The notes under the pieces were generated by a model, which saw nothing but the letters and a program-made list of their open reading frames with translations, was not told the origin of the DNA and searched no databases. Below, one piece after another: positions 783 through 51,230 of a stretch of 54,168 bases of DNA; within the stretch, counting starts at the first letter, position 1; each line of letters starts with the position of its first letter. Source of the DNA: Chiloscyllium plagiosum (lineage: Eukaryota); contig NC_057749.1 in NCBI RefSeq assembly GCF_004010195.1, positions 9,105,575-9,159,742 on the forward strand, written 5' to 3'. The translations under genes were made by a program, and so were the position numbers.

Positions 783-1300
783 TCAATGATTCTATTCTAT
801 GTGGAAACAGGCCATTTGGCCCAGCAATTTCACACTGACCATCCCACCCAGAACCATCTGTTACCCTATCCCTATAATCCTGCATTTCCCGTGGCCAACC
901 CACCCAACCTGCATATCCCTAGACACGATGGGAAATTTCCCATGGCCAATCGACCTGACCTGCACGTCTTTGGACTGTGGGAGGAAACTTACGCAGACAT
1001 GGGGAGAATGTGCAAACTCCGCACAGTCACCCAAGGGTGGAATCAAACCCGGGTCCCTGATGGAGCGAGAGACAAGAAAACTGCAGATACTGGAATCCAA
1101 AGTAAAGAAGCAGGAGGCTGGAAGACCACAGCAAGCCAGGCAGCACCAGGAGGTGGAGAAGTCAATGTTTTGGATGTAATCCTTCTTCAGGATTATTAAC
1201 TTCTCCACCTCCTGATGCTGCCTGGCTTGCTGTGGTCTTCCAGTCTCCTGTTGGTCTACCCCGGTGCTGTGAGGCAGCAGTGCCAACCACTGAGCCATCA
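783..1300 (-). mobile_element. HE1-type V-SINE, interrupted by a fold-back PLE-tail insertion at about 1075-1258
   Basis: Reverse complement of the SINE at 1672-2017 (ctttggactgtgggaggaaac, gaggcagcagtgccaaccactgagcc). Confidence 0.8.
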
Positions 1301-1671
1301 TGCTTCCCCACCACTGAGCCATCTCCTTTTGTGTTTTCTGCAAATTTCCCAATCACACCTACCATGTTTAACACTGAAATCATTCACATATGCTACAGAA
1401 AGCAACTGCGTGGAACGCCACAAGAAACTTCCTGCCATTTGCAAAAACATCCATTTCACCACCACCCTTTGTTTCCCCCCTCTGAGCCAACTTTGGATTC
1501 AATTTCTCACACTCCCCACCAGCTTGAATTCTCTTGTCCAGTTTTCCATGTGGAACCTTGGTCAATGCCTCACTCAGACCCATGTGGACAACTTCCACTT
1601 TAATGAATAAAATAATAAGACAGCGTCCAGTAACTGGATTGGCAAAAAAAACTCATCTGGTTCAGTGGTGC

Positions 1672-2017
1672 CAGCATGATGACACAGTGGTTAGCACTGC
1701 TGCTTCACAGCGCCAGGGACCCGGGTTCGATCCCACCCTTGGACGACTGTCTGTATTGAGTTTGCACATTCTCTCTGTGACTACATGGGTTTCCTCCGGG
1801 TGCTCCGGTTTCCTCCCACAGTCCAAAGATGTGCAGTTCAGATGAATTGGCCATGCTAAATTGCCCTTAATGTTCAGGGATGGGTAGGTTAGGTGCATTA
1901 GCCAGGGGTAATGGTAGAGTATTGGGTAATGGGTTTGGGTGGGTTACTCTTCGGAGGGTCGGTGTGGACTTGTTGTGCCAAAGGGCCTGTTTCCACACTG
2001 TAGGATTCTATGATTCT
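1672..2017 (+). mobile_element. HE1-type shark V-SINE
   Basis: tRNA-like head (cagtggttagcactgctgc...gggttcgatcc), V-domain core (gggtttcctccgggtgctccggtttcctcccacagtccaaagatgtgc) and a LINE-like tail (gggcctgtttccacactgtaggattctatgattct). Confidence 0.85.
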
Positions 2018-2307
2018 AAAACAATGTCCTTGGACAAAGGGAATCTCCTGCCCCTACCTGTTCTGACTCCAAATCCACACGGATGTGGCTCTTAACCACC
2101 GTCTGAAAGGGTGAGTAAGCCATTTAGGGGGCAAGTAGACTTGGCGAGTACTCGCCAGTAACATTCAGATTGTAAAAAGGGTTTTCTTTTTTAACAGAAG
2201 ATATTGAAAGACTGAAGGGCCTCCTCCTTTTCCTATGGTTGTCTTTTTGCCGCCTGTGCTAGAGGTTAGCCAAGAGCTCTGTCCGCTTTCAGGTTGTATG
2301 TTCTCAC

Positions 2308-2439
2308 CTGGCCTCTGGCAGACTCCAGTTCCTGGTTTTGCTCCTCCAGCTCACTATTCCGAGTCTGCAGCATGTCCCAAACCTTCTGTAACTCCTCTCG
2401 CACCAGAAAGAGCTCACTATCCACTTCCTCCAGCGATGC
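2308..2439 (-). CDS. Coiled-coil gene, last exon visible in the window: ASLEEVDSELFLVREELQKVWDMLQTRNSELEEQNQELESARGQ
   Basis: ttaacag|GCA acceptor, CAG|gtgaga donor, 132 nt, phase 0-0, heptad-like composition. Confidence 0.85.
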
Positions 2440-3974
2440 CTGTTAATGTAATACAGTGTGCTGGGATTAGAATGTACAATCACAGGACCATAGCAGGCCA
2501 TTCAACCCGTCCTGCCTGTCTCAGCTCTTCACAAGTGCCATCCAATTAGTCGCGTTCTCTCTACCCAGGTTTTCCTTTTCAAATATTTATCTAATTTCCC
2601 TTCTGAGAGAAATGGTTGAATCCCTTTCAGGAAGTGAATGTCAGATTACATCAACTCACTGCCAAGAATGACAGGCTCATATCTTTTAGATTTTGCCGTC
2701 TATCTTAAATTGATAATCTCTGGTCACCAAATCTCCGGCCCGCAGAGACGGATTCAACTTTTGGGAATTGAGAATGCTCAGCTGCAAATGGTTCTCGATT
2801 ACTTTAGGATATCTGGTCAGCATGGACGAGTTGGGCCGAACGATCTGCTTCCATGCTGTACATCTCTATGGTGCTAAGTGCTTCCAAAAACTCTCCTGAA
2901 CAGTCTGGCCCTAATTCTCAGACTATCCCCTAATTGTAGAATCCCCAATCAGTTTACCTTCATCTACCCTTAGGAATTGACCGACAGGTTTAGACATTAC
3001 ATTTTGATCGGCTCAGGCTGGGAGGGCCGAAGGGCCTGTTCCTGGGCTGTAAATTTTCTTTGTTCTTTACCCTATCTTTTCCTGTTAATATCTTGAAGAC
3101 AGTTCAATTAGATCACCCCTTAATCTTCTAAATTCCCTGCTTACCTGTAAAGTATTTATTTGCCAGCACACCCCAAATCACACTGAGTTCAATATTTCAA
3201 ACGGTGCTTGAGGAATTGGAACATGGAAACAGGCCACTTAGCCAATCACATCTGTGTCAGCCTTTCCCTCTGTGCTAGCAATACAGCTGAGGATGGCCAA
3301 TTGCAAGAAAATTAGCAGACTGATTCAAGATAATTATTTGAAACAAAAATTCACATGCAACTAATTTCTTTACTGTCCTGTGTCATTTATGCAAGTTTCC
3401 AATGCTTAGAAGCAAGTTCAAAAATACTAATGTTGAGAGTGTGGTGCTGGAAAAGCACAGCCGGTCAGGCAGCCCGAAACATTGATTCTTCTGCTTCTCG
3501 GATGCTGACTGACTGGCTGTGCTTTTCCAGCACCACACTCTTGTCTCTAATCTCCAGCATCTGCAGTCCTCCCACTCTCTCCTCAAAAAAACTAGTGACC
3601 ATTTAACCGTTGTCAATTAGAGTCATACAGCACGGAAACAGACTGTTCGGTCCAACTCATCCATACCGACCAAGTTTCCCAAACTAAATTAGTCCCATTT
3701 GCCTGTATTCTGCCCATATCCCTCTAAATACTCAATTGTTGGAAAAATGCATCTGGTTCACTAATGTCCTTCAGGGAAGGAAACTGCCATCCTTACCCGT
3801 CTGGCCTACATCAGGTGACTCGAGACCCACAGCAATATGGTTGATTCTTAACTACCCTCTGGACTATTAGGGATGGGCAATAAACATTGGCCCAGCCAGT
3901 GACACCCACATTCCACAAGTGAATATAAATAATATTGCTTTGGTTTGCGCAAAAGCTAGGTTGGAAACCAAAAC

Positions 3975-5240
3975 AAACTTAGGTTTGATATCCAGACGTT
4001 TCATTACCTGGCTAGGTAACATCATCAGTGGTGACCTCCATGTGAAGCAAAGCTGTTGTCTCCTGTTTTCTGTTTATATATTTGTCCTGGATGGGGTTCC
4101 TGGGGTTTGTAGTGATGTCATTTCCTGTTCATTTTCTGAGGGGTTGGTAGATGGTATCTAGATCTATGTGTTTGTTTATGGCGTTGTGGTTGAAGTACCA
4201 GGCCTCTAGGAATTCTCTGGCATGTCTTTGCTTAGCCTGTCCCAGGATAGATGTGTTGTCCCAGTTGAAATGGTGGGTTTTTTTTAGGGGGATCTCCGCT
4301 ATCAGGATTCATAGCAGAAGCAGTAGTGCAAAGACTAGAACAAACAGTCCTCCCAACCATCAAACCAAAAATCTGGGTCTGCTACGTAGATGACAACTTT
4401 GTCATCACAAAATGAAACAAGATAGAAGAGACATTTAACATCATCAACAATACCCTCACAGGCATAATGTTCACCAAGGAGGAAGAAACCGACAACAAAC
4501 TCGCATTCCTGGACGTCACAGTCGAAAGAACGGACAACGGAGAACTACAAACCTGCGTATACAGAAAACCGACAAACACTGACCAAATACTTAACTACAC
4601 CAGCAACCATCCCAACACACACAAACAAAGCTGTATCAGAACGCTATTCCAACGAGCCACATTACACTACAGCACAGACGAACTTTGGAAAACGGAGGAG
4701 AACCACCTATACGACGTATTCAAGAAGAACGGATACTCAAAAAATACAGTCCGCAGATTCCTCAAGAACAAACCACGACAAGCAGACTAAACACAGCCAG
4801 AAATCCTAACCACCTTACCATACATCAAAGAAGTTTCAGAAATGACAGCCAGCAGACTACTAAGACCCCTCGGAATCCTAGTAGCACACAAACCCACCAA
4901 TACTCTCAAACAAAAACGTACAAACTTAAAAGACCCAGTACATCCCATGGACAAAACCAACGTCGTCTACAAAATTCCATGCAAGGAAAACAGATCTAAA
5001 TACCATCTATCAACCCCTCAGAAAACAAACAGGAAATGACATCACCACAAACCCCAGGAACCCCGTCCAGGACAAACATATAAATAGAAAGCAGGAGACA
5101 ACAGCTTCGCTTCACTTGGAGGTCGTTACTAAGGATGTTACCTAGCCAGTAATGAAACGTCTGGATATCAAACCTACACCTCAGCGAGCAAACATACACC
5201 CTAAACCTCAATCTGAGCTACAAACCTTCACAAACCTTGC
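3975..5240 (+). mobile_element. Decayed Penelope-like retroelement (Poseidon-like) with inverted pseudo-LTRs
   Basis: RT motif IWVCYVDDNFV at about 4371-4403 followed by a stop; EEETDNKLAFLDVTV...VYRKPTNTDQILNYTSNHP; GIY-YIG start VVYKIPC; 3980-4165 is the inverted copy of 4993-5175; the minus strand of 4130-4277 reads HHFNWDNTSILGQAKQRHAREFLEAW (endonuclease C-terminus). Confidence 0.9.
3992..4031 (-). ncRNA. Minimal type I hammerhead ribozyme motif in the PLE pseudo-LTR
   Basis: Minus strand: cca-CTGATGA-t-gttacct-agcc-aggtaat-GAAAC-GTC-tgg; helix I cca/tgg, 7-bp helix II, ACGU palindromic helix III. Confidence 0.75.
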
Positions 5241-7786: not shown

Positions 7787-8007
7787 ATGAAAGTGAGGAC
7801 TGCAGATGCTGGAGACCAGAGTCTAGATTAGAGTGGTGCTGGAAAAGCACAGCAGGGCAGGCAGCATCTGAGGAGCAGGAAAATCAATGTTTAAGGCAAA
7901 AGCCCTTTATCAGGAATTCCTGAAGGGCTTTTGCCCGAAACGTCAATTTTCCTGCTCCCTGGGTGCTGCCTGACCTGCTGTGCTTTTCCAGCACCACTCT
8001 AATCTAA
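7787..8007. mobile_element. Fold-back PLE-tail element with a 16-bp TSD
   Basis: Two inverted arms centred on ggaattcc; AGCTCACTGATAGTAA at 7771-7786 and 8008-8023. Confidence 0.85.
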
Positions 8008-8145
8008 AGCTCACTGATAGTAACCAGCTGTTCCTGGGACATTGCTACACAGACTCTCCCTCAAAACCTGGAAAAGGCACCTTCGAGTCAAAAGGTATGG
8101 TGCTGGAAAAGCACAGCTGGTAAGGCAGCATCCGAGGAGCAGGAG

Positions 8146-8181
8146 AGTCGACTTTTCGAGCATAAGCTCTTCATCAGGAAT
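8146..8181 (-). ncRNA. Hammerhead motif with mutated helix III in a PLE-tail copy (10-bp TSD CACCTTCGAG at 8078-8087 and 8204-8213)
   Basis: Minus strand: attc-CTGATGA-agagc-ttat-gctc-GAAAA-GTC-gact. Confidence 0.55.
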
Positions 8182-8321
8182 GGGTTCTGACCTTCCTCAA
8201 AATCACCTTCGAGGTAACCCAGCAACCAAATAAACCTCTCAAGGTGCAGCAAGGCTTCACTGATACTTCCCACGCCAACCCAACGCTCCTCATCCTCACA
8301 GAGAATACCACTGCCAACTGT

Positions 8322-9457: not shown

Positions 9458-10847
9458 ATCCGACCATAGAAGCTGAAGGAGGTCATTTCAATTTACAGTC
9501 AAACATAGAGTGACATTCACTCACAAACACACCCTCACACAGACACAAAGACAAACTCACATGGACAGACACAGATAGACACACACTCACATAAACAGAG
9601 ACAAATAATTTCCTACACACACAGGCAGATACTTACACAGAGACAAATACACACAGACAGGCACAGGTGCACACGCGCACACACACGCAGATACATAAAG
9701 GCGCACACATGTGCACGCACATGTTCACACACACACCACTGAAGAAGTCATATCAGATTCGAAATGATTACTCTGTTTCTGTCTCCACCAATGCTACCAG
9801 ACCTGCTGGAGTTTCTCCAACACTCTGTGTTTAACAGGCATCCTCTTAGCTTTTTCTCCCAAACTTACTGAAACACTGAGATGGTGGTGTGGTGATTACG
9901 TCACTGGACTCTAGTAACCCAGAGACTCAGGCTAAGGTTTTGGGGACACGGGTTCAGATTCTCCCAGGACAATTGACAGAAATTAAATTCAAAAATTAAA
10001 GATTCATCTCCTGGTCTCTGCTGTGAGTTTACCAAGAATGACAGAACTACCTTCCTTTCAGTAACATTATTAGGTTTCTAAAGGCGATTTATACTGGACT
10101 CAAAACGTTAACTCTGTTTCTCTCTCCACACATGCTGCCAGACCTGATGAGTTTCTCCATCGCTGTCTGTCTTGGCTATTAGCCATTGGTTGGTCGGGGA
10201 GAAGGCTGTGAGAATAAATGAGTCGGCCGGAGATGAGGAGTGATTCCATGGGCATTCCAACCAGAGCTGGAAAACCCCCAGCCAGTTCCTCTCCCCAGCC
10301 CCCGTTTCCAACATGGAGGTACTTACAGCTCCTTGACCATACTCTGGCTGAGATCACATGACCCAGCATTGGTCAAGCGTCAAACCTGGACCCTTTCTCT
10401 TCTGGACACTCAAAACAAAATCAGGAGGTGTGACCACCCAAAGAGGTAAGGCCTGTGACTGTCTCAAACACTCACTGTGTAAAGAAATGTAAAATAATAC
10501 ATTAATATTGAAAATGTACAGTGAATTGTCAAGGCTTTGGTACTCCTTCACTTCAGAACTGGTGTGAGGAAACATCCTTTTACAAAGCAGTGAACAATCC
10601 ATGAAGAGAAAGCCACAACCATCGGATTGCTTAATAATTAGTTAGCGAGTCTTTAACTCACTTAACCAAGAATGGCTCTGAGACCATCTTTCATGCAGGT
10701 TTACGGAGCTTGAATGAAAGAGCCACTTAATACGCATTTTGTCAATCAGCCTGTTCAGAGATACCATTACACACCTCTGGAGCAGGTGGGACTTGATTCT
10801 CGGTCTCCTGCCTCAGAGGTATGGACACTTCCACAGCAGGGAAAAAA

Positions 10848-11049
10848 GTTAGGACTGCAGATGCTGGAGATCAGAGTCGAGACTGTGGTGCTGGAAAAGC
10901 ACAGCCGGTCAGGCAGCATCCAAGGAGCAGGTGAATTGACGTTTCGGGCATAAGCTCTTCCTCAGGGTTTAAGCCCGAAACGTCGATCCTCCTGCTCCTC
11001 GGATGTTGCCTGACAGGCTGTGCTTTTCCAGCACCACAGTCTCGACACT
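10848..11049. mobile_element. Fold-back PLE-tail element
   Basis: Inverted arms (gtcgagactgtggtgctggaaaagcacagc ... gctgtgcttttccagcaccacagtctcgac) around fused hammerhead remnants. Confidence 0.8.
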
Positions 11050-11596: not shown

Positions 11597-13605
11597 TATA
11601 TTCAAGGCTGAGATGGATAAACTTTCAATGGACGAGCAATCGCGGCAGGTTCCTGTGCAGGTACAGCAAGTAATCAGAAGAGCTAATAGAACGTGATGTT
11701 TTATTCTGAGGGGGATTGAGTACAGGAGTAGGGAGCTGATGTTTCAGTTCCACAGAACATTGGTGCGACCACATTCACCGTGACTGGATGCGGGTTTAGT
11801 TGGCTGGACGGCTGGTTTGCGTAGCACAGTGACAGCAACAGCATTGGTTCAATTCCCACACTAGCTGTGGTCAACATGAAGGTCCTACTCTCACCATCGC
11901 CCCCTACCTGAGGCACGGTGGCCTTCAAGTTAAACTCGACAACAGTCATCTCTCTTTCATGTGAATCGTCCACTGGGACTATGGAAACTTTCTCTTAGCT
12001 TTTCACAGTACCGGTCACTGTACTTACAGAAAGACATTAATACATTGAAAGCAGTTCAGAGACAATTAGTCCCTGGAATGAGTGGATTGTCTTGTTAGCC
12101 AAGGCTAAACCTATATCCACTGGAATTTAGAAGATTCAGAGATGGCTTAATTGAAACATAGGCAGAAGTGGGTACTGAAGATGTTGGAGATTAGAGTCTA
12201 GATTAGTGTGTTGCTGGAAAAGCACAGCAGGTCAGGCAGCATCCGAGGAGCAGGAAAATCGACATTTCCTCATGTAGCAGAATCTAGAACGAGGGATTTA
12301 AAAACTAAATGTTGCCCATATAAGACAGAGATGAGGAAATGTGTTCTATCAGAGGGTTGAGTGTTTTTGGAATTCCCTTCCACAAAACGCAGTGGGCGCA
12401 GAACCCTTCAATAGTTTTAAACCAGAGATAGATAGATTCATGATAAAAGATTATCGGCAACATGCAAGACTGCAGCCATTGAGGTTAAAATCAGATCAGG
12501 CACGATCTTAACGAATGAGACAGCAGGCTCGAAGGGCTGAGTGGCCACTCTCATTCCTTGTTTGTAGATTAAAAGGGGAGGGCAAACAGGAAAGTGGACG
12601 GACAAACAGGTGAACCGAGGGGAGTAGGTCAATCAGACGCTCGGGCCTGCTCCACATTCAATAAAACTTGTAACCATCAGATCAACCAGGAGGGGCCAAA
12701 TGGCCTACTCCTGCTCCTGGACCTTGTGATCAGTCCATCAAGACAATTTGCAGAAAATGAATATCTAAGGGTTGAGAGGGAGTGATGAAGATAGGAGATG
12801 CTGTTGTTGACTTAATCACTAGAAATAACTGAACATTTCTCAATCCTTTTGGCTTGTTGCTTTCATTTATGCTATATTTTTTATTCCAGTTTTGGAATCA
12901 AGTGTGTAAGCAAGATGGCGGCAGTTACATCGGTGGAGACAAGATGGTGCCGAAGAGCAGTGACTTTGTTCCAGCGGCAGCGAAGGGGTCTCAGGCCTAG
13001 CCACCAGGCCCATGACAGAGCACTTAACAAGAACAACTTTAAAGCTGGATCCTTCTTTTATTTCTTCATTTTTCTGCCTTTATTTTCTAACTTTTGGTTT
13101 CTTTTCTGTGTTTTAAGATGGCTCTGGAGAGTATCGTGTCACAAGATACACATGACAACGAACAAATCAAACCAAAAGTAGTCTGGATCATCGTATTTTC
13201 AATATTCCCGATGTCATGAACGTCCAGAACTAGGGGTCACAGTCTCAGAATAAGGAGTAAGCCTTTCGGGACTGAGATGAGGAAGAATTTCTTCACGCAG
13301 AGAGTTGTGATCCTGGGGAATTCTTTCCCACAGGAAGCTGTTGGGACCAGTTTGTTCAATATACCCAAGAGGGAGCTGGATGTGGTCCTTGTTAAAGGGA
13401 TCAAGCGATTTGGGGAGAAAGCGGGAGTGGGATCATAAGATTGCATGATCATACAGAATGGTGGTACAGGCTTTAGGGACTGAATGGCCTACTCCTGTGC
13501 TTATTGTCCATGTTTCCATAAGAGGTACAGAAATGTTTCCCTCATAAGGTCTGTGCCAGTCCCTCTGACTGCCATCTCACTGAAACCACAACACCCATCC
13601 CTCAC

Positions 13606-31331: not shown

Positions 31332-31553
31332 CAACAGATGGGGTGATGGAAAAGCACAGTAGGTCAGACAGCATCTGAGGAGCAAGAAGATCAACATTTC
31401 AGGCTGAAACCTTTTATCAGGATTAATGAAAGGTTTCAACCCGAAACGTTGACTTTCCTGTTCCTCGGATGCTCTCTGACCCTGCTGTGCTTTCCAGCTC
31501 CACATCTATTGACTCGGACTTCCAGCATCTGCAGTCCCCCACTGTCTCCAAGT
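31332..31553. mobile_element. Fold-back PLE-tail element with a 16-bp TSD
   Basis: CACAATATTCAACTGT at 31316-31331 and 31554-31569; inverted arms. Confidence 0.85.
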
Positions 31554-35854: not shown

Positions 35855-35890
35855 ATTCCTGAAGAAGGGCCTGTGCCCGAAACGTCGAAT
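35855..35890 (+). ncRNA. Intact minimal type I hammerhead ribozyme motif
   Basis: attc-CTGAAGA-a-gggc-ctgt-gccc-GAAAC-GTC-gaat; perfect 4-bp helix I and helix II; predicted cleavage after C35886. Confidence 0.8.
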
Positions 35891-37427: not shown

Positions 37428-37579
37428 CTGCAAAGATGGACGAGGTGTTTTTAAAATAGGAGCCTGCCTTCCAGGACATTCCAACAAATACTTTCAAAAT
37501 TGGAAAGCCCTATCTCTGGCCCCTCCTCAGCCTTCTCTTTGCAGGACGTAGAGGGGTCAGTGTTCGACGAGGGTGTACA

Positions 37580-38040
37580 AAGTTAAAAATCACAGAACAC
37601 CAGGTTATAGTCCAACAGGTTTAGTTGGAAGCACTAGCTTTCAGAGCACTGCTTCTTCATCAGGTAGCTAGTGGGGCAGGATCATACAACACAGAATTTA
37701 TAAATACCGAAATTAATAAATACGGAAATCCCATAACTTCTTTCAAGGTTACATTCCTGAGATAACTTAAGGTTTTACAAAAAGTAGGTGACATCTCAGT
37801 TCAGACAATGTATTATTAATCAAAATCTGCAACTCCATTCTAAGTGATTAAAGACTTAACAGCAATCTAGGTTTGTTCAATACATTGCATCAGTTGTATG
37901 ACACTTTGATCTTTTACTATAAATTCTATGTTGTACGATCCTGCCCCACTAGCTACCTGATGAAGGAGCGGCGCTCTGAAAGCTCGTACTTCCAAATTAA
38001 CCTGTTGGACTACACCTGCCGTTGTGTGATTTTTAAACTT
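37580..38040. mobile_element. Second-family fold-back PLE-tail element with one hammerhead per arm
   Basis: Arms at about 37580-37700 and 37918-38040 are inverted; hammerheads at 37632-37666 (-) and 37954-37988 (+). Confidence 0.8.
37954..37988 (+). ncRNA. Minimal hammerhead motif, AGCU-palindrome type
   Basis: tac-CTGATGA-a-ggagc-ggc-gctct-GAAAG-CTC-gta. Confidence 0.7.
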
Positions 38041-38342
38041 TCTCTTTTCACAACAGCCGCTGTGCTCTGCATTGTGGGAAACGGTGAGAGTTGGAGCAGG
38101 AATTTAGAAAATGACAAGAGTCGCCCGGACTGAAGGGAGACGGACAAAGGCAGGAAATCCTTGATCCCAGATGGAAAACGTGTGTATGAGTCTTCTGCAG
38201 TGGGAGAGGACTCACGTCTTGGTGGCAATATCGCGCCCCCCCCGCCACAGGCGGATGATTTAACAACCAAGAGGAGGTGGCTTTCCTTACCTGGGTCAAC
38301 TCTGGCCACTCTGTAAGTAACATTTTGTGAGAGTGTAATTAC

Positions 38343-40335: not shown

Positions 40336-41315
40336 GATTCAGAACAAAAACCGAAAGAACTGCGTATGCTGTAAATACAAAACAAAGAATGGAAATTTCC
40401 AGAAAAGCTCAGCAGGTCTGACAGCATCTGTGGAGAGAAATCAGAGTTAGCATTTCAGCTCCAGGGCGGATATTCTGAGGTAGGGTGACTCAACCCGAAA
40501 CATTAACTCCGATTAGCAAACAACAATACTACAAGAAATAGGAGCAGCAGCAGGCCATTCGGCCCCTCGAAGCTGTTCTGCCATTCAGTAGCATCATGGT
40601 TGATCTGAATGATTTGGAGGAGCCAGTGTTGGACTGGGGTGTACAAAGTTAAAAATCACACAACACCAGGTTATAGTCCAACAGGTTTATTTGGAAGCAC
40701 TAGCTTTCGGAGCACTGCTCCTCCACAACCATCTGAGGAAGGTAGCCTTAACCCTACTTGCTGCCTGTCCCCTTGATTCCCTCGTAGATCAAAGATCATT
40801 CTAACTCAACCTTGAATCTATTCATTGACACAGCCTGCAGTGCTTGAGGAAGAGCATTATACAGAATAATGACCCTCTGGGAGGAGAAATTCCTCCTCAT
40901 CTCTGTCTTTAATGGGAGATCTCATTCTTTTAAACCATGCCCCCATGATAGAGAACATTCTCTCAGCATCCACCCTGTCAAATCCCCTTAAATGGTTCAA
41001 TAAGTCTGTCTCTCCTTGCTCTAACCTCCATTGGTATGCAGACCCAACCATTTTTCTTAAGATGAACCCCTTCATCCCAGGAATTAGCCCAGTGAACCTA
41101 GTCCAGTCTGCCTTCAATACAAGACATCCCTCTTTAAGTTAAGGGTCCAAAACTGGACACAGTATGGGCTGTTCATGTATAGCAAGGTCTCTGCCGGTCT
41201 CCGCAACACCCCCCTCCCCCCACTTTCTGTGCACAACATCAAACAAGGGACCTGAGCTCACCAATATTTAGAAATAAGGAAGGTTACAGGGATATGACAT
41301 CCCATTAGTGCTCAC

Positions 41316-41445: not shown

Positions 41446-42466
41446 CTGCGCAGAGCAACAACTGGTTCATCTCTCAGAGCAACAGTACCATTCATGACTA
41501 GACATTGAATGTAGCCCTCCTTTTTTGTCCCTGACTTAGCAGGTAGCTGTCTCATTTCCAAGTCAGACACTATTGGGCTCACGTTGCTCTGCAGGGGTAT
41601 CTAACCTAGGCCAACTCTCTGCATGCAATACTGAGGGAGGGCTGGACTTTCCGAGGTGCTGCCTTTCTCATGACTTTAACTGGTTTGTCTGTTAGGTGTA
41701 AAGACTGTATGCGGATACTTTGAAGAGAAAGCAGAGGACTTATCTCCATTGTCCTAGCCAGGAATTTACCCTCTGACAGAGAAGAATGTACAATCTGCTT
41801 CTTATCACATTGTTATTGGTGGGACCCAGCTGTGTGCAAATGGACAGCTGTTGCATAAATTACAATATCATGAAGTACAGAACTCTGACATCTGTTTTAG
41901 GGCACTTCAGTTTGTCCAGAGATCAGGAAAGTCTTTACTTAAATGACTTTTCTTTCTTATAGGATATGGATAGGCTGAGAAATGGCCTGGTCGGGCTTAA
42001 TTTGGACAAGCGCAAAGTGATGTAAGGTCAAATACAGGCGGGAAGTATATAGTAAATGGCAGAAGCTTTGGTAGCATCAACATACAGAGGGATCTAGGCA
42101 AACAGGTCCACAAATCCCTGAAAACGACAACACAGTGGAAGTGATGAAAGCTGGTACAATTGCAACATTTAAGAGGCATTTGGATGGGTATATAAATAGG
42201 AAGGGTTTGGAGGGATATGGGCCGGGTGCTGGCAGGTGGGACTAGATTGGGTTGGGATATCTGGTCGGCATGGACAATTTAGACGAAGGGTCTGTTTCCA
42301 TGCTGTACATCTCTATGACTCTTTGACAAGTGGTTAAAGTGGTCATGAAGGCATATGATTTGGAGACACTGGTGTACAAAATTACAAATCACACAACACC
42401 AGGTTATAGTTCAACACGTTTATTTGGAAGCACAAGCTTTCGGAGCACTCCAACATTGTCCTGAAT

Positions 42467-42501
42467 CACCTGATGAAGGGGCAGTGCTCCGAAAGCTAGT
42501 G
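42467..42501 (+). ncRNA. Minimal hammerhead motif, AGCU-palindrome type
   Basis: cac-CTGATGA-a-ggggc-agt-gctcc-GAAAG-CTA-gtg. Confidence 0.72.
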
Positions 42502-42611
42502 CTTCCAGATAAAACTGTTGGACTATAACCTGGTGTTGTTTGATTTTTAACTATGAAGGCATATATATGGCATTGCTTGCCATCAGTGGTTGAACCACAG
42601 AGTATAAAATC

Positions 42612-42647
42612 ATTCCTGAAGAAGGGCCTGTGCCCGAAACGTCGAAT
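42612..42647 (+). ncRNA. Intact minimal hammerhead motif identical to 35855-35890
   Basis: attcCTGAAGAagggcctgtgcccGAAACGTCgaat. Confidence 0.8.
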
Positions 42648-44213
42648 CTCCTGTTCCCTGGATGCTGCCTGACCTGCTGTGCTGTTCCAGCAATAAAGTN
42701 NNNNNNNNNNNNNNNNNNNNNNNNNNNNNNNNNNNNNNNNNNNNNNNNNNNNNNNNNNNNNNNNNNNNNNNNNNNNNNNNNNNNNNNNNNNNNNNNNNNN
42801 NNNNNNNNNNNNNNNNNNNNNNNNNNNNNNNNNNNNNNNNNNNNNNNNNNNNNNNNNNNNNNNNNNNNNNNNNNNNNNNNNNNNNNNNNNNNNNNNNNNN
42901 NNNNNNNNNNNNNNNNNNNNNNNNNNNNNNNNNNNNNNNNNNNNNGCAGTGCTCCGAAAGCTAGTGCTTCCAGATAAACCTGTTGGACTATAACCTGGTG
43001 TTGTTTGATTTTTAACTATGAAGGCATATATATGGCATTGCTTGCCATCAGTGGTTGAATCACAGAGTATAAAATTGGCATGTCATGTTGCAGCTGTATA
43101 AAACTTTAATTAGTTGGGATATTGCGTTCGGTTCTGGTCACTGCACTACCAAAAGGATATGGAGTCTTCAGAGACCACACAGAAATGGTTTACTAGATGT
43201 TGCCTGGTTGGGAGGGTATTAGCAATGAGGAAAGATTGGACTAACTCGATTTGTTTTCACTTGAACGTCAATGGAAAAGCTGATAGAAATGTACAAAATT
43301 ATGAGAGACATGGACAGAATGGAGATCTTTTCCCAGGGTAGAAATTTCAGTTATTAGGGGCCATAGGGTTAAGATAAAAGGAAATGAGTTCAAAGGAGAT
43401 GTGAGAGGCAAGTTTTTCCTTTTACACAGATGGTGGTGAGTGTCTGGAACGCACTGCCAGAAGGGGTGGTAGATACAAATACAACAGCAATGTTTCAGAG
43501 GCATCTTGTCAGAAATATGAATAGGCAGGGAATAGAGGGATTTGGACCATGTAGAGTCAAAACGTTTTTAGTTTAGAACGGTGTCATGTGTTGCCCTGGT
43601 CTTGATGGGCCGAAGGATCTGTTCCTGTGCTGTACTGATTTTTTATTCTTTATTCAGATCTCTAGTCCATGATGACACTAGGGATCCATTGATAAGAACA
43701 GAGAAGATTAAAGAGAAGATTTAATGGGGGAGATTTAAATCATGAGGTGTCTTCACAGACCAAATAAGATGGAACAATTTTCACTTGGGGGTGGATTCCA
43801 GTAACTGGAAGGCACGGATTTAAATGCAACAGAGGAGATTTGAGGAGAACTTTCCTTTTAAATAAACACCACGAATTGTTAGGATCTGGACTGAGCGGTT
43901 TGAAAAGGGAGCAGAGTCAATAATGACTGGCAGAAAGGGTTTGGAAGAATGTTTGGAAAGGAAGACAGCTGCAGGGATTATTGGGGAGAGCAGAGGGAGT
44001 GGGACAAATTGGAAGACACGTTATAGAGTCAGTACAGGCAGGATGGGCCAAATGCTACATCCTAAACCATTGGAAGAGTCAAAGAGTCAAACACTGGGTG
44101 GGGCGACCTGTTTCAGAGGGGGTCCATCAATAAGCAACATGGAGACAATGAGCCAAGTGTTAACCCAATACAAACCTAACCAAAAAGCCACAAGGAACAA
44201 CAAGCCAACTTAC

Positions 44214-46228: not shown

Positions 46229-47409
46229 CTAGCAGAGAAATGAGAAATGCACTGTATTGAATTGAATGATTTATTGTCACATACAGTGAGAAAACAGTAA
46301 AATGCAGTGAAAATCTGTTCTAGGGTCATCACAATCCAATGCTATTTCGAATAAATTAAGAATAAGGGGGGTGGGAAATAGAAAGGTAGAGGTTAAAGCG
46401 GGTTTGTCAGTCCTGAGACAGCTCTTCATCAACGTCGCCTGCATTGCTATTCCTCCTGCATCACCTCGGCGCTGTCTAAACTGGACCCAACCAACCAGGA
46501 GGCTGTCGGCACCACCATTCACCACCAGCCTTACCTCGACAATATCACCTCCGCCAATGTGGCAGCCACCAATTCCAATGCCAGGTCCCGTGCTTGTCCC
46601 ACAAAATAAGTAAGGGCTCACTTGAGGCACGCCGCGCAAAAACAAGAAAAGAAGAGAAAAGGAAAAGGAAAGCAGCCAGAGTGGGCGAGTTCTGGCTCAA
46701 GTGCCCTACTCTGCTGCCATCATGCAGTGCCACCAGGTGATGACAGGGAATTGTCTCACTGTAACAGCCTCAAATGATGGCTTCCTGCTCGAAACAATGC
46801 ACTGATATGGTACATTGCACTGCGATCAGAGATCCCAAAGTCCTTTGCAACCAATTAAGTACTTCTCAAGTGTAGTCCTGTTCAAGTCCAACGCAACCTC
46901 CTTAGTCTCATTTTCAACACCCCTATTGATAAAATCAAATATATTTTTTAGATTAGACTCCCTACAGTACAGAAACAGGCCCTATGGCCCAACAGGTCCG
47001 CACCGAACCTCCAAAGAGTATTAACGGTTGCCTCACCCTGGGCTGCAACCATCAATGACACCCAGGTCTCTCTGCTCCTTGATTCCAATTACGATCATAC
47101 CCTTTATTTTATCTCTCCACTTTCCTCCGATCAAAATGAACTTCAACTTACACCCATTCCACCAAACTCCTTTCAGAGCTCTATACTGTCCTCCTCACAG
47201 GCCACAATACTTCCAGGTTCTGCATCCTCCACAAATATTGGAGCTGTGTCCTTCACACCAACGTCTAAATCTTTAATACAGATCAGGAAAAGCAAGTGTT
47301 TCAGCGCTGATTTCTTGAGAAAGTGAGGACTGCAGATGCTAGAGATCAGAGCTTAAAAATGTGTTGCTGGAAAAGCGCAGCAGGTCAGGCAGCATCAAAG
47401 GAGCAGGAG

Positions 47410-47445
47410 AATCGACGTTTCGGGCACAAGCCCTTCTTCAGGAAT
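47410..47445 (-). ncRNA. Minimal hammerhead motif in a PLE-tail copy (about 47318-47505)
   Basis: Minus strand: attc-CTGAAGA-a-gggc-ttgt-gccc-GAAAC-GTC-gatt. Confidence 0.75.
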
Positions 47446-47774
47446 GAGGAGGGTGTGCCAAGCAGGCTAAGCTAAAAGGTAGGGAGGAGGGACTTGGGGA
47501 AGGGGACACCACTTGAGAACTCCATTAGAAAACCTCCTTCTAGCCCCAGAAAAATCCACAAAGCACTAATCGCCATTTCCTCTCACTTAGCGAATTTCCC
47601 ACCCATGTTGCTGCCCCTTTAATTCCATGAGTGATAACTTTGGTCAGAAGTCTTTTGTGCAGTAGTGCATCAAGTGGCCAGTCACATTACTGCAAAGCCA
47701 CTGACTTGGCGCAATCTGCCTTTATAATGGAACCTTTCAGCCCACGATCGAGATGCTTGCTTTGATAACCTATA

Positions 47775-48169: not shown

Positions 48170-48805
48170 GTGCTTCGGTCCTTGAGAGTGGACTCACAGT
48201 TTGACAGGTTGGTGAAGAAGGCATTGGTCAGAACAGTGAGTATGGAAGTTGGGACATTATGTTATGGCTGTATAGGACATAGGTGAGGCCACTTCTTAAA
48301 TACTGCATACAGGTCGGCTTGCTATAGGAAAGATATTATTAAAGTTGAAAGAGTGCAGAAAAGATTTACAAGGATGTTGCCGGGATTGGAGAGGCTGAAT
48401 AGGCTTGGGGATTTTACCCCCTGGAACATCGGAGGCTGAGGGGTGACCTTACCGAGGTATTTAAATCATGAGGAGGATGGCTAGGTTAAGTAGACAAAGT
48501 ATTTTTCTTGGGGTGGGGGAGTCCAAGACTATAGGTTTGAGGGGAAAGATTTGAGAAGGACCTGAGGGGTAACTTTTTCACACAGAGGGTGGTGTGTGTA
48601 TGGAATGAGCTGCCAGAGGAAGTGGTGGAGGCTGGTACAATTACAACATTTAAAAGGCATCTGGATGGGTACACGAATAATAAGAGTTCAGAGGGGTATG
48701 GGCCAAATGCTGGCAAATGGTATTAGCTCAGATTGGGATGTCTGGTCGGCGCAGTTGAGTTGGACTGAAAGGTCTGTTTCCGTATTGTATGACTCTATGA
48801 CTCTT
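48170..48805 (+). mobile_element. CR1-clade LINE 3' fragment
   Basis: Collinear with the other CR1 copies; ends gactctatgactct. Confidence 0.85.
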
Positions 48806-48923
48806 AAGTGGTAGAGAAAACAAATAAACTACAATGCAGCTTGAACTATATCTCATTAAACCCTCAACACACAAACACTGCCCAGAAAGATTAATCAGAC
48901 CCCAGGTGTAGGTCTCCACTTAT

Positions 48924-48996
48924 TTCGCCGTCAATTTGAATTTGCTGTCCCCGACAGCTCCTACATATCGAGGGCTAAGGACGACAGAAACCTTCG
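48924..48996 (-). CDS. Tentative 5' exon: (A)KVSVVLSPRYVGAVGDSKFKLTA, with non-canonical ATAAGT donor
   Basis: Good acceptor tttgtatttcctgacag; phase 1-2 bridges its neighbours, but the donor reads AA|ataagt. Confidence 0.35.
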
Positions 48997-50204
48997 CTGT
49001 CAGGAAATACAAAAATGAAACAGATGGTTCAATATATCTTGCAAATAACTTAATTAGGATAGTAGAGCTCAATGTTTATCTGGGTGACAACGTTGATTGA
49101 CCAGTGAGACTAGAGAATCCACATTGATGGCAAAACAGGAAGTGAAAATCAGGAACTATTTGCCATTATGGAAGAATTGATATAAAAATCAGGGACATGC
49201 AAGTGGGTGATTAAAAGAGTAACAGAAATACAAAATCATCGAATTTACCCCATAAGGGGCTGGAATAGCACACAGGTAATATTCATTTTTTTCAGGGCCA
49301 GAGAGGATGTTCACCAGTAATTGTGATGTTTTGTGTTATTAAAATCATAGAGAATCCTGATTGTTTCAATCTCAAGCTTCATTGTTCTGACCCATGAAGG
49401 CAACTGTGCCCAATGCCACCTTCACCATCCTGTCAACCTGTGACTCCACTTTCAATCCTGATTGAAACAGCCTCCCATGTGATAACAGTGGGGAACTAGT
49501 TCATGTCTGAACAGTGATTCCAGCTACAAAGGCAGTAATCGTGCAGCCCTGATAAGTGAAGTATATCATGTATTTCAGTGTTTAACTGCATGTGGCATCT
49601 GCTGGTGTTAGCCCATCAGCTTTGTTTCCAACCACAGCCAGCAATGACAGCATAAGCATTTTTGCTATACCAGATACTGGGCCATGGGTAAGGACAGAAG
49701 GATGTGGCTCTGATGCCTCACAATCTTCAACAACCCAGCAGCTGGCATTCACATGAAGAGGGATTTTGGGGTGCGTCTGCGTGTGTGTGCGCGTGTGCAT
49801 CTGTGTCTGTGTCTGTGCGTGTGCGTGTGTGTGTGTCTGCGTGTGCGTGTGGGGGGGGGGGGGTGGTGTTGCTCTGCAGAAATCTTAGGAGGAATAGGGA
49901 GAAACAAATTGACATTTCGGCATATTTCTCAAATTACATCATTAGTGTGTTAAGGACCAGAAATATTCGCAACCCGCAGTGCTAAAAGAGATGGTCTATT
50001 ATTAAGAATAGAGGCAAATGATGACTTGTGATCCTGGGATGCTTTTCAGTTCTAATCACAGAGTGGGTGGACACACTGCCTCAGTAACACGCAGCTGAGT
50101 CATTGAATCGTTTACAAGAATTTGCACCAAGCATTTCCCCAAGTGGGAGGGTAGATTCCAAAGGAAAGTACGAGAACAAGGGACTATTCCAAGACAAAAG
50201 CAAA

Positions 50205-51230
50205 GCACTGAAGACGCAGAAAGTGCTGGAGAAACTCAGCAGGTCTGGCAATGTCTGTGGAGAGAGAAACAAAGTTAAACATTGCAAGCCAATTATGACT
50301 ATTCTAGAGACCTCTCTGTCTTTCTAGCTGGGACTATCCACTGATATTCTTCGCAAACCTAACTCCCACTGCTATCTGAACAACACTTTCTCTTAAGGTG
50401 TTTCCTTTAAGAGTCCATTGTATTCTCCCAGTTTCTCCATTTCTCTCATTATCACAACTCTGACAATGATGCCACCTTCCAGCAGGGGTACCTTTTACTT
50501 CCTTACTGTCCAAGGCTCCAAATGCTCCTTACAGGTGAAACAGTGATTTACCTGTACTTCTTGCAAATTAGGAAGCTGCATTCACTGCTCACTATGCCAT
50601 CTCCTGCACAATGGGAAAATCCAATGTAGACCAAGTGACCGATTTGCAGACTACCTTTTCAAGCGTGACCCAACCTTCTGGTCCCTCGCCATCTAATTAC
50701 ACTAATCTCCCCTCATGCCCGCATTAGTGTCTTAGATTTCTGCAAGAAAGACTACCAGAAGCTGAGATAGCAGCATTTCATTTTCCCTTCAGTCACTTTA
50801 CATCCTCCTGGACTTCAACAACTTCAGACCATGAACTTTGCCCTCCATTTTGCCTACTTGCCTCAACATACTCCCTCTCCTCTCCCCCAACTATCTGCAT
50901 TCCTCAGTTTTGCCTTCAATAGGGAGAGAGGTGACCTAATGTTTTTTCTATTAACACCTACCCTGCATCTATATCACTTCTCAACACGATCACCACTCCT
51001 TTTGCCTTTTGTTCCATGACACCAGTGATCTCAGTTGCCTGCAGTTCCCCCACCTTTCCTTCCATTGGTTCCTCCACCTTTTCTTTCTACAGTATAAAAG
51101 CCATCTCTTTTCCACCTCTCTCTTCTGTTCTAAGGAGTCATGTTGGGTTCAAAATATTACATTCTGTTCCTGTCTCCACAGATGTTGCCAGAGCTGCCGA
51201 GTTTCCCCAGCACTTTCTATTTTTATTACA
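50205..51230 (+). mobile_element. Heavily decayed Penelope-like (Neptune-like) element with an inverted terminal tail
   Basis: 50511-50654 translates QVKQ*FTCTSCKLGSCIHCSLCHLLHNGK...DRFADY, a degraded Cys-containing GIY-YIG; the tail at 51125-51228 is repeated inverted at 50215-50290. Confidence 0.65.

What the first reader, a model, noticed from the sequence alone, without database searches (positions are those of the whole stretch)
1075..51230. Swarm of short hammerhead-ribozyme retroelements derived from Penelope-like tails
Seen: more than 20 short (90-250 bp) elements, many containing helix I - CUGANGA - helix II - GAAA - palindromic mini helix III - NUH - helix I'. Intact or near-intact examples are 35855-35890, 42612-42647, 47410-47445, 3992-4031, 42467-42501 and 37954-37988. 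Helix II differs between families but stays paired (gggc/gccc, gagc/gctc, gttacct/aggtaat), which is covariation. Established: Penelope-like elements carry minimal type I hammerheads whose weak palindromic helix III favours cleavage as dimers. Inference: this genome has a very high-copy, non-coding, ribozyme-bearing non-autonomous system with several families, mobilised by PLE RT/GIY-YIG. I cannot tell whether it has been described in sharks.
Basis: partly seen in the sequence, partly recalled or inferred. Interest (0 to 1): 0.8.

Follow-up and report, generated by a model that had tools for sequence, protein, structure and literature searches.

The report
Penelope retroelement stubs carrying hammerhead motifs
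The window is dotted with short, mostly dead-end copies of the tail of Penelope-like jumping genes, each starting with a minimal hammerhead ribozyme motif; they are real and hugely abundant in this genome, but belong to a kind already described.

Summary
All six cited sites carry a minimal type I hammerhead (HHR): CUGANGA, one bulged base, a 4-7 bp helix II, GAAA, an ACGU or AGCU palindrome, then GUC/CUA. A strict descriptor finds 5 sites in the window and 0 in 200 shuffles. BLAST finds 27 element arms of three families (A, B, C), plus 9 arms of an older relative.

Exact HHR patterns occur 88,434 (A), 18,697 (B) and 2,979 (C) times in the 3.56-Gb genome; reversed-pattern controls give 0.

These are not a separate non-autonomous system. 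In longer copies each family continues upstream into the GIY-YIG-coding 3' end of its own Penelope-like element (PLE). Short and long A3 copies show no diagnostic difference.

The insertions carry the published PLE signature:
- variable 5' truncation;
- two discrete 3' ends about 35 nt apart (the "tail");
- 39 head-to-head pairs against 1 tail-to-tail, 27 of them with the tail on one arm only;
- 8-14 bp target duplications;
- an empty site in another species.

5' ends pile up at the HHR's first bases, not at the cleavage site; this is unexplained. Cleavage is untested, and no Rfam hammerhead model matches. Verdict: new member of a known kind (Cervera and de la Pena 2014). Two earlier scan notes on this genome agree.

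The parts
35855..35948 (+). Family A3 short copy (94 nt): min-HHR at 35855-35890, then the 3' region ending ...agtttcaac, without the tail. Flanked by a 13-nt duplication cgggttcaattcc at 35847-35859 and 35949-35961.
   Evidence: A contig of another species joins 35846 to 35949, giving an empty site (table 8, record 1).
42610..42699 (+). Second A3 copy, 100% identical to 35855-35942 over the 88 nt that are readable. It runs into the N gap 42700-42945.
47317..47505 (-). Family A2 copy with tail. It extends 63 nt upstream of the HHR into the PLE 3' region. Core intact, helix I 2 bp.
7789..7998 (.). Head-to-head pair of family A arms: 7789-7917 (-) with tail, 7916-7998 (+) without. Flanked by agctcactgatag on both sides.
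10845..11046 (.). Head-to-head pair of family A arms: 10845-10966 (-) with tail and core+GAAA kept, 10964-11046 (+) truncated at +8.
3429..3587 (.). Head-to-head pair of family A arms, both 5'-truncated inside or after the HHR. The right arm has the tail.
31338..31549 (.). Head-to-head pair of decayed family A arms. The right arm has the tail.
1080..1243 (.). Decayed head-to-head pair of family A arms forming a long hairpin. This is the source of the sub-threshold miRNA-like Rfam hit at 1116-1245.
8098..8182 (-). Single family A arm with helix II GAGC/GCUC; the palindrome is mutated to AAGU.
12166..12268 (-). Family A arm with tail, 5'-truncated at about +21, inside the HHR.
33172..33257 (-). 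Family A arm without tail, starting at about +2. Core decayed.
16542..16585 (+). Fragment of a family A tail only (unit positions 86-129).
42371..42555 (.). Family B head-to-head pair: 42371-42445 (-), with a decayed tail running further left towards the duplication, and 42465-42555 (+) with an intact HHR at 42467-42501. Flanked by ATGAAGGCAT at 42345-42354 and 42553-42562.
37551..37702 (-). Family B copy with part of the tail and 37 nt upstream of the HHR. Helix II is broken.
37837..38041 (+). Family B copy extending 116 nt upstream. The HHR at 37954-37988 passes the strict descriptor (cleavage triplet CUC).
40609..40725 (-). Family B copy with the 39-nt tail, 5'-truncated at +5.
42952..43020 (+). 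Family B arm in a 98%-identical duplicate of 42481-42600, on the far side of the N gap. This duplicate lacks the A3 insertion.
3980..4276 (-). Family C copy: 247 nt of PLE 3' sequence, an intact HHR at 3992-4031, and a 3' end about 17 nt after the cleavage site.
4970..5187 (+). Family C copy with a decayed HHR, head-to-head with 3980-4276 at about 700 bp.
18529..18674 (.). Inverted pair of an older relative of family A (tail GATGCTGCCAGACCTGCTGAG...), core decayed. Other arms of this family have their tail motif starting at 9790, 10131, 17161, 19209, 51181 (+) and 40428, 50255 (-).

Best explanation
The elements are 3'-terminal pieces of at least three lineages of endonuclease-bearing Penelope-like retrotransposons (PLEs). 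Each lineage carries its own minimal type I hammerhead motif about 60-95 nt (families A, B) or 17 nt (C) from the 3' end.

Shown here:
- the motif and its abundance;
- the link to PLE GIY-YIG-coding sequence;
- two discrete 3' ends about 35 nt apart;
- variable 5' truncation;
- head-to-head pairs with the 35-39-nt tail on one arm only;
- 8-14 bp target duplications;
- one empty site in another species.

Inferred from published work on an Anolis PLE: the PLE protein cuts both target strands, and each 3' end primes reverse transcription at one of two internal sites of the RNA. This gives copies with or without the tail and, when both strands are extended, head-to-head palindromes. Most cDNAs stop early, so the genome fills with 90-130-nt stubs.

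The hammerhead is maintained in the source elements, with covarying helices between lineages. In the stubs it is a passenger. Lacking a same-strand partner, it is probably inert, because this HHR type needs a dimer.
For: Motif:
- The strict descriptor gives 5 hits against 0 in 200 shuffles.
- All 78 distinct strict sites in the held DNA have the bulged base between A9 and 10.1 and a self-complementary ACGU, AGCU or AUGU. Helix I, helix II and 15.2/16.2 differ between families but pair.
- The A3 HHR segment folds by MFE into helix I plus helix II at -7.2 kcal/mol.

Abundance: 88,434 (A), 15,038 (A3 30-mer), 18,697 (B) and 2,979 (C) exact matches. The reversed-pattern control gives 0 each time.

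PLE link:
- A 67-aa linker/GIY-YIG peptide matches 150 of 150 scored places, out of 48,664 first-look candidates.
- In 14 of 29 such loci a family A HHR passes the strict descriptor on the ORF strand, from 54 nt before to 682 nt after the ORF end. In 6 more the same region is visible but mutated.
- The ORF fragment hits 57 longer proteins. Most carry RVT_1 and some also GIY-YIG. The best named one is a bamboo-shark protein at 72% identity.
- The C and B upstream ORFs align to the GIY-YIG motif of one such protein, E 1e-7 and 2e-5.

Footprints:
- 3' ends are bimodal, at 90-94 and 125-129 (26 and 26 of 96 A arms) and at 85-89 and 120-124 (8 and 10 of 32 B arms).
- There are 39 head-to-head pairs against 1 tail-to-tail and 2 same-strand adjacencies. 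27 of the 39 have one tailed and one untailed arm.
- Target duplications. Empty site.
- 22 short and 8 extended A3 copies show no diagnostic difference.

Literature:
- min-HHR features: PMC4209133, passages.
- Insertion architecture: PMC8557442, passages.
- Two RT start sites, both strands extended, and HHR mutants not affecting insertion in vitro: PMC11167929, main text part 1 and passages.
Against: - No Rfam hammerhead model matches. This holds at gathering score, at E<=10 on the whole window, and on short stretches.
- Self-cleavage was not tested and cannot be tested here.
- Helix I is only 2 bp in the two commonest subfamilies, A1 and A2.
- Pfam GIY-YIG scores sit just under the cut-off for family A (22.1 and 21.9 against 22.6). 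There is no Pfam hit for the B and C fragments.
- The RT-coding parts of the PLE copies are withheld (N). I therefore never saw RT and HHR on one copy, nor an upstream pseudo-LTR.
- Plain random 5' truncation does not predict the pile-up of 5' ends at the start of the HHR. 33 of 53 intact-HHR A copies end 0-8 nt upstream of C3. 20 of 96 incidental arms end at -6..+3, about 3-4 times the flanking density.
- B is tied to a PLE ORF by two loci only.
Confidence: 0.85

Rival explanations
1. One reading: the 90-130-nt unit is a self-sustaining non-autonomous retroelement, SINE- or retrozyme-like, with its own master copies. It is transcribed from near the start of the HHR and copied in trans by PLE RT/EN.
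For: - 5' ends are discrete. 19 of 27 A3 copies, 11 of 14 A2 and 3 of 12 A1 end 0-8 nt upstream of C3.
- There are 15,038 near-identical A3 30-mers.
- The sequence TCATTCC just upstream fits the initiator consensus YYANWYY. That consensus is recalled from memory, not tested.
- In Anolis the RNA needed for insertion lies downstream of the HHR (PMC11167929), so a short RNA would be a competent template.
Against: - The same subfamily sequences run upstream into PLE sequence in 20 of 53 copies.
- 22 short and 8 extended A3 copies show no diagnostic difference.
- Most short copies would not carry a promoter lying upstream of their 5' end.
- No RNA 5' ends were seen, although the library laid (poly-A single-cell, about 2% of the run read) is poorly suited to showing them.
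- ARAGORN finds no tRNA-like head in the window.
Confidence: 0.12
2. Non-LTR retrozymes: tandem HHR repeats whose transcripts self-cleave at two sites, circularise, and are then reverse-transcribed.
For: - The type I HHR has a palindromic helix III, as in metazoan retrozymes (PMC7229834, search listing only).
- A 2026 preprint derives vertebrate retrozymes from PLE pLTRs (10.64898/2026.07.22.740005, abstract and Results part 1).
Against: - None of the 37 TRF rows for the window shows a unit matching these elements.
- Only 2 same-strand adjacent arm pairs against 39 head-to-head pairs in about 350 kb of held DNA.
- One three-copy direct cluster among the first 100 A3 matches listed.
- 1 of 96 incidental arms starts near the cleavage site (+26..+32), and none at +28/29.
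Confidence: 0.03
3. The motifs are chance matches, or belong to an unrelated palindromic DNA transposon (MITE) or LINE-dependent SINE.
For: - Many copies form hairpins that resemble MITEs.
- Rfam sees only weak miRNA-like hairpins.
Against: - 0 of 200 shuffles give any hit, and the reversed patterns give 0 genome-wide.
- Single arms have their own target duplications.
- The two arms of a pair are asymmetric, with a tail on one only.
- The copies are continuous with PLE coding sequence.
Confidence: 0.01

Closest known systems
Minimal hammerheads (min-HHR) in the pseudo-LTRs of metazoan Penelope-like elements (Cervera and de la Pena 2014, PMC4209133; passages read)
   Same: - Core CUGANGA/GAAA, with one extra base between A9 and 10.1.
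- G10.1-C11.1 pair.
- No helix III; palindromic 15.2-16.2.
- Several covarying families per genome.
- Thousands of genome-wide copies, of which only a few lie in full PLEs.
   Different: - The host is a cartilaginous-fish-like genome, not treated in that paper.
- Copy number is about ten times the largest figures quoted there: 110,110 exact matches here, against about 4,000 in coelacanth and 9,000 in Xenopus.
- Helix I is only 2 bp in the commonest subfamilies.
PLE insertion architecture and internal RT initiation (Craig et al. 2021, PMC8557442, passages; Frangieh et al. 2024, PMC11167929, main text part 1)
   Same: - Strong 5' truncation.
- An adjacent inverted 5'-truncated copy.
- An optional 30-40-bp tail at one end only.
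- Two RT start sites that explain the tail.
   Different: - Here the signature is quantified on short stubs (27 of 39 pairs have exactly one tail; 3' ends are bimodal).
- A pile-up of 5' ends at the start of the HHR is seen. I did not find this described in the passages I read.
Non-LTR retrozymes of animals (Cervera and de la Pena 2020, PMC7229834, listing only; Li, Clavereau and Pollet 2026 preprint, abstract and Results part 1)
   Same: Non-coding type I HHR-bearing sequences related to PLE pLTRs. The preprint argues that they are non-autonomous PLE derivatives and sampled one chondrichthyan.
   Different: Retrozymes are defined by tandem repeats with at least two HHRs and by circular RNAs. 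The elements here are dispersed single arms or head-to-head pairs.
Sm-alpha of Schistosoma (HHR-bearing SINE-like element; mentioned in PMC6155905, figure legend read)
   Same: A short, high-copy, non-coding element carrying a type I HHR.
   Different: Sm-alpha carries a canonical HHR with helix III and loop contacts. I did not compare sequences.

Membership tests
min-HHR of metazoan PLEs (Cervera and de la Pena 2014) | Conserved core CUGANGA ... GAAA in type I order (helix I open) | tested here: met
   There are 5 strict sites in the window and 78 distinct strict sites in all held DNA.
min-HHR of metazoan PLEs (Cervera and de la Pena 2014) | One unpaired nucleotide between A9 and 10.1 | tested here: met
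   All 78 of 78 strict sites need a 1-nt bulge: A in families A and B, U in C.
min-HHR of metazoan PLEs (Cervera and de la Pena 2014) | G10.1-C11.1 closing pair of helix II | tested here: met
   G-C in families A and B. In C it is G-U in the window copy and in most listed copies, and G-C in a listed subfamily.
min-HHR of metazoan PLEs (Cervera and de la Pena 2014) | No helix III; positions 15.1-16.1 form a 4-nt palindrome able to pair between two copies | tested here: met
   ACGU in families A and C, AGCU in B. CpG-decayed AUGU occurs in some copies.
min-HHR of metazoan PLEs (Cervera and de la Pena 2014) | Helix I formed by the flanks | tested here: inconclusive
   4 bp in A3, 3 bp in B and C, and only 2 bp in A1 and A2. 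In many short copies the 5' strand is target DNA.
min-HHR of metazoan PLEs (Cervera and de la Pena 2014) | Lies in the terminal non-coding region of a PLE | tested here: met
   Family A: 14 of 29 PLE loci, plus 6 mutated. Family C: 2 of 3 loci show the PLE ORF upstream of the HHR; the third shares the upstream DNA but no such ORF was listed. Family B: L097, with L096 partly readable.
min-HHR of metazoan PLEs (Cervera and de la Pena 2014) | Self-cleavage (weak, as dimers) | not testable with these tools
   Laid poly-A RNA reads show no places where many molecules begin or end. The library is ill suited to this, and only about 2% of the run was read.
Endonuclease-bearing PLE insertion | [quoted passage not shown] | tested here: inconclusive
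   The GIY-YIG part is seen. The RT-coding stretches read N. Database relatives of the visible fragment carry RVT_1 with or without GIY-YIG.
Endonuclease-bearing PLE insertion | Variable 5' truncation | tested here: met
Endonuclease-bearing PLE insertion | Adjacent inverted 5'-truncated copy | tested here: met
   39 head-to-head pairs against 1 tail-to-tail. Among the first 100 A3 matches there are 15 close (-,+) pairs and no (+,-) pair.
Endonuclease-bearing PLE insertion | Optional 30-40-bp tail, usually at one end only | tested here: met
   3' ends are bimodal, 35 nt apart. 27 of 39 pairs have exactly one tailed arm.
Endonuclease-bearing PLE insertion | Pseudo-LTR (partial direct tandem around the ORF) | tested here: inconclusive
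   No full-length copy could be read. L092, upstream of L053, shows no HHR on the ORF strand. One PLE locus has two same-strand HHRs 1,053 nt apart (L038).
Rfam hammerhead families (Hammerhead_1, _3, _II, HH9, HH10; names recalled) | Match to the covariance model | tested here: not met
   No hammerhead family among 0 (gathering), 28, 2 and 4 matches at E<=10.
Non-LTR retrozyme | Tandem repeat with at least two HHR-bearing units | tested here: not met
Non-LTR retrozyme | Circular RNA | not tested
   One search lists joints but none specific to these units. No analysis for circles was made.
SINE | Pol III-type head (tRNA, 7SL, 5S) | tested here: not met
   ARAGORN finds 0 in the window. The copies start at the HHR or within PLE sequence.

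The most novel reading that the evidence does not exclude
The 90- or 125-nt unit is not just a truncation product. It is a defined RNA that begins within about 6 nt of the first hammerhead base (a transcription start in the TCATTCC just upstream, or a programmed RT stop) and ends at the internal RT start sites.

On this reading the hammerhead sits at the very 5' end of PLE transcripts and can strip the first 30-odd nucleotides, cap included. The unit then behaves as a minimal, repeatedly re-copied parasite of the PLE machinery. It has seeded more than 100,000 ribozyme motifs and tens of thousands of perfect hairpins in a vertebrate genome.
Probability: 0.15. Interest if true: 0.55.

Novelty: new member of a known kind. 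Interest (0 to 1): 0.3.

Why it matters
This adds a cartilaginous-fish-like genome, with very high copy numbers, to the known link between Penelope-like elements and minimal hammerheads. That matters for three reasons.
- Repeat annotation: these stubs and their hairpins can be mistaken for MITEs, SINEs or miRNA precursors.
- Assembly: an N gap in the window sits at one copy.
- Mechanism: the clean genomic statistics (two 3' ends 35 nt apart, one tail per head-to-head pair) are an in vivo footprint of what was proposed from an in vitro Anolis system.

The unexplained pile-up of 5' ends at the first hammerhead base is a concrete, testable lead on what the ribozyme region does for the element.

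Tried and rejected
- Rfam: gathering, E<=10 on the whole window and on two short stretches gave no hammerhead family. The models do not cover this minimal form.
- DNA search of the own genome with the 94-nt unit returned nothing, because very common words are skipped. Exact patterns were used instead.
- Pfam GIY-YIG family search of the genome gave one hit only. That hit served as the seed for a peptide search.
- Pfam scan of 120 window ORFs of at least 90 aa found no RT or GIY-YIG, so no autonomous PLE lies in the window.
- Full-length PLE copies were sought. The long 'open frames' were runs of withheld N, so neither RT nor an upstream pseudo-LTR could be read.
- A Naiad-like (N-terminal endonuclease) reading of family B arose from L096, where the GIY-YIG motif lies 1.6 kb upstream of the HHR. 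It was rejected: in L097 the same motif lies about 680 nt upstream with ordinary 3' sequence between.
- 5' ends at the predicted cleavage site, a lead from an earlier scan note on another genome, are not enriched here: 1 of 96 arms at +26..+32.
- RNA: no RNA holder was listed for the stretch. One of the two raw-read RNA runs laid nothing. The other laid 2,848 reads, almost all from other copies, on both strands, with no common starts or ends.
- ViennaRNA cofolding of two HHR segments only pairs the helix II hairpins between molecules, which is trivial and uninformative about the dimeric ribozyme.
- The sequence look-up in earlier scan notes found nothing.

Full report
**Observation**

I wrote a strict descriptor. 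It requires the core, a helix II of at least 4 bp with a loop of at most 8, GAAA, a paired 15.2/16.2, U16.1, H17, and a helix I of at least 3 bp. It finds 5 sites in the window (35859+, 42616+, 37957+, 42470+, 4028-) and none in 200 dinucleotide-preserving shuffles. The sites at 47441(-) and 37663(-) fail only on a helix mismatch.

BLAST of representative units against the window gives 27 arms: 19 of family A, 6 of B and 2 of C. They are 32-297 bp long, 2.9 kb in all, and 9 still have CUGANGA...GAAA. A degenerate search for the family A tail motif adds 9 arms of an older, decayed relative, out to about 51230.

**Anatomy**

- Family A reads (ATTC) CUGA[A/U]GA A GGGC-N4-GCCC GAAA CGUC | GA[A/U]U. 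About 60 nt of tail sequence follow, ending ...agtttcaac or its subfamily equivalents. An optional further 35 nt can follow (tttgatctccagcatctgcag...ctttctcc).
- Family B reads CAC CUGAUGA A GGAGC-N3-GCUCC GAAA GCUA | GUG. It ends ...gatttttaac, with an optional 39-nt extension.
- Family C reads CCA CUGAUGA U GUUACCU-AGCC-AGGUAAU GAAA CGUC | UGG. It ends about 17 nt later.

Across the 78 distinct strict sites in all DNA held (window plus loci), every one needs the single bulged base after A9. The four bases around 15.1-16.1 are ACGU, AGCU or CpG-decayed AUGU. Helix I, helix II and 15.2/16.2 differ between families while staying paired. Helix I is 4 bp in subfamily A3 and 3 bp in B and C, but only 2 bp in the commonest subfamilies A1 and A2. 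The A3 HHR segment folds by minimum free energy into helix I plus helix II (-7.2 kcal/mol).

**Abundance**

The window lies in a 3.56-Gb assembly. Exact-pattern counts over both strands are below; the same patterns read backwards give 0 each time.

| Pattern | Matches |
|---|---|
| Family A HHR | 88,434 |
| A3-specific 30-mer | 15,038 |
| Family B HHR | 18,697 |
| Family C HHR | 2,979 |

Together, A, B and C give 110,110 intact-pattern motifs, about one per 32 kb. Decayed copies are not counted.

**Link to Penelope-like elements**

No RT or GIY-YIG is found among 120 ORFs of the window. A Pfam GIY-YIG search of the genome gave one locus. Its 67-aa linker/endonuclease peptide then matched 150 of 150 scored places, out of 48,664 first-look candidates.

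In 14 of the 29 new loci a family A HHR passes the strict descriptor on the ORF strand, between 54 nt before and 682 nt after the end of the longest ORF. In 6 more the translated ORF tail shows the same region in mutated form. The DNA just upstream of the HHR in longer family A copies (L009, L016, L023, L067, L080 and others) is this PLE 3' region.

- A 311-aa ORF fragment scores 22.1 bits on Pfam GIY-YIG, against a cut-off of 22.6.
- The same fragment finds 57 longer proteins. Most carry RVT_1 and some also GIY-YIG. The best named one is an uncharacterised bamboo-shark protein at 72% identity.
- Family C HHRs lie about 100 nt after an ORF whose NVIYKI...YVGQTGRKLATRIHEH stretch aligns to the GIY-YIG motif of one such RT/GIY-YIG protein (E 1e-7).
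- The family B HHR lies about 680 nt after an analogous motif (E 2e-5).
- Pfam itself reports nothing for the B and C fragments.
- The RT-coding stretches of all copies I fetched read N, so I never saw RT and HHR on the same copy.

**Insertion footprints**

I aligned all arms in about 350 kb of held DNA to family units.
- 3' ends are bimodal. For A they fall at unit positions 90-94 (26 of 96 incidental arms) and 125-129 (26 of 96). For B they fall at 85-89 (8 of 32) and 120-124 (10 of 32).
- There are 39 head-to-head (5'-to-5') pairs, against 1 tail-to-tail adjacency and 2 same-strand adjacencies. 27 of the 39 pairs have exactly one arm with the tail and one without. One is tail/tail, two are short/short, and nine have an arm too decayed to class.
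- Among the first 100 genome matches of the A3 30-mer there are 15 (-,+) pairs 40-64 nt apart and three 264-269 nt apart. There is no (+,-) pair, and one direct three-copy cluster (counted by eye).
- Target-site duplications of 8-14 bp flank single arms and whole pairs. Examples are cgggttcaattcc at 35847-35859 / 35949-35961 and ATGAAGGCAT at 42345-42354 / 42553-42562.
- A contig of a run from another species covers window 35600-35846 and 35949-36568 contiguously. It therefore lacks the A3 copy and one duplication copy, which is an empty site (table 8).

This is the architecture described for PLEs: strong 5' truncation, an adjacent inverted truncated copy, and a 30-40-bp tail at one end (Craig et al. 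2021, PMC8557442, passages). For an Anolis PLE it has been explained by cleavage and extension of both target strands, with reverse transcription starting at two internal RNA sites (Frangieh et al. 2024, PMC11167929, main text part 1 and passages).

**Truncation products or a family of their own?**

5' extents vary from 0 to more than 280 nt. I looked at 53 distinct family A copies with an intact HHR pattern, taken from the two samples not chosen for length.
- 20 continue upstream into PLE sequence: 9 of 12 A1, 3 of 14 A2 and 8 of 27 A3.
- 33 end 0-8 nt upstream of C3.

Among 96 incidental arms, 20 start at -6..+3 (2 per nt). That compares with 7 at -20..-7 and 13 at +4..+25 (about 0.5-0.6 per nt). 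Only 1 starts at +26..+32, around the predicted cleavage site. So there is a real pile-up at the first bases of the HHR and none at the cleavage site.

Over the 90-nt unit, 22 short and 8 extended A3 copies show no diagnostic difference. The only class difference is N7 (A in 22 of 22 short copies; A in 5 and G in 3 of the extended), apart from one indel-bearing copy in each class.

I conclude that the stubs come from the same sources as the long copies. Why the 5' ends pile up is open. Candidates are:
- a transcription start in TCATTCC (it fits the initiator consensus, which I recall from memory);
- joining by microhomology with AT-rich target ends (the Anolis enzyme prefers ATT);
- a stop of the RT.

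In many stubs the 5' strand of helix I is therefore target DNA, as at 35855.

**RNA**

No RNA holder was listed for the stretch. Of two raw-read poly-A single-cell RNA runs of the same species label, one laid nothing. The other, with about 2% of the run read, laid 2,848 reads on the elements, on both strands. 2,757 of them lay only partly on the stretch, so they come from other copies. There was no place where many molecules begin or end. This says nothing for or against cleavage. TRF lists no array whose unit matches these elements, and ARAGORN finds no tRNA-like gene.

**What argues against calling these hammerheads**

No Rfam hammerhead model matches at any threshold. Helix I is minimal, and activity is untested. 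The published min-HHRs cleave poorly in vitro, and then only as dimers (PMC4209133, passages). In Anolis, core mutations do not affect insertion in vitro, and no reads ending at the cleavage site were found (PMC11167929, passages). The stubs have no same-strand partner nearby, so they are probably inert.

**Comparison with what is known**

- Cervera and de la Pena 2014 list the features tested above as marks of PLE min-HHRs: the bulged base, G10.1-C11.1, palindromic 15.2-16.2, covarying families, and thousands of copies with few in full PLEs. They report about 4,000 in coelacanth and 9,000 in Xenopus.
- PLEs are known in cartilaginous fishes (PMC4350176 and PMC8455134, passages).
- A 2026 preprint argues that vertebrate tandem 'non-LTR retrozymes' derive from PLE pLTRs, and it sampled one chondrichthyan (abstract, Results part 1, passages).
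- A full-text search for 'hammerhead ribozyme', 'Penelope-like' and 'shark' found one paper with all three terms, where 'shark' refers to the shape of the motif. A second search found nothing closer.
- Two earlier notes of this scan on other pieces of the same genome reached the same reading.

**Verdict**

This is a new member of a known kind. Its worth lies in the numbers and in the unexplained 5' pile-up.

Noticed in passing
window 42481-42600 and 42946-43065, around the N gap 42700-42945: The 120-nt stretch with the family B arm and its right flank is present twice at 98% identity, on either side of the gap. The first copy is followed by the A3 insertion at 42610. The second continues without it (...GTATAAAAT|TGGCATG...). 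This looks like two haplotypes, with and without the insertion, assembled in series. That would make it a heterozygous and very recent insertion, or else an assembly artefact.
   Followed up: partly
window 37605 and 40671-40674 (family B arms on the minus strand): In the poly-A RNA run, 119, 245 and 127 reads carry about 70 nt of T before these places. That means RNAs in the sense of the B element that end in a long A run right after CCAAATAAA, about 24 nt past the predicted cleavage site. This could be real polyadenylation or oligo-dT priming (table 7).
   Followed up: no
window 22748-22887: A nearly perfect hairpin of about 140 nt that matches several miRNA-precursor models on both strands below their gathering scores (best 64 bits against 80). 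It is unrelated in sequence to families A-C and is probably another inverted repeat.
   Followed up: no
L034, L036, L054, L055, L057 (PLE loci of family A): In several copies the frame that encodes the GIY-YIG domain stays open for about 100 further codons and reads through the HHR (...SSFLKKGLCPKRRFSCSLDAA, then stop). The ribozyme motif may therefore overlap the end of an open frame. In the Anolis PLE it overlaps the ORF start.
   Followed up: partly
window 35800-35980: The A3 copy at 35855 sits inside a repeat with a B-box-like gggttcaattcc. The sequence is continuous in the empty site of another species. ARAGORN calls no tRNA there.
   Followed up: partly
window 1-491 and 13986-14567: A (GTGA)n microsatellite of 123 units at the window start, and a 32-bp minisatellite of 18 units.
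   Followed up: no
L096 (G000:C1:12120000-12122000): A family B head-to-head pair 1.8 kb apart. Its interior is almost wholly withheld (1,290 N). In the right-hand copy the GIY-YIG motif lies 1.6 kb from the HHR, against about 680 nt in L097. This suggests a nested insertion.
   Followed up: partly
runs X1 (organism A), X2 (organism B), X9-X14 (organisms D, E): Contigs of runs labelled as other species hold parts of the stretch. In X1 they pile on the element bins at very high summed depth, so the families are shared beyond this species.
   Followed up: partly
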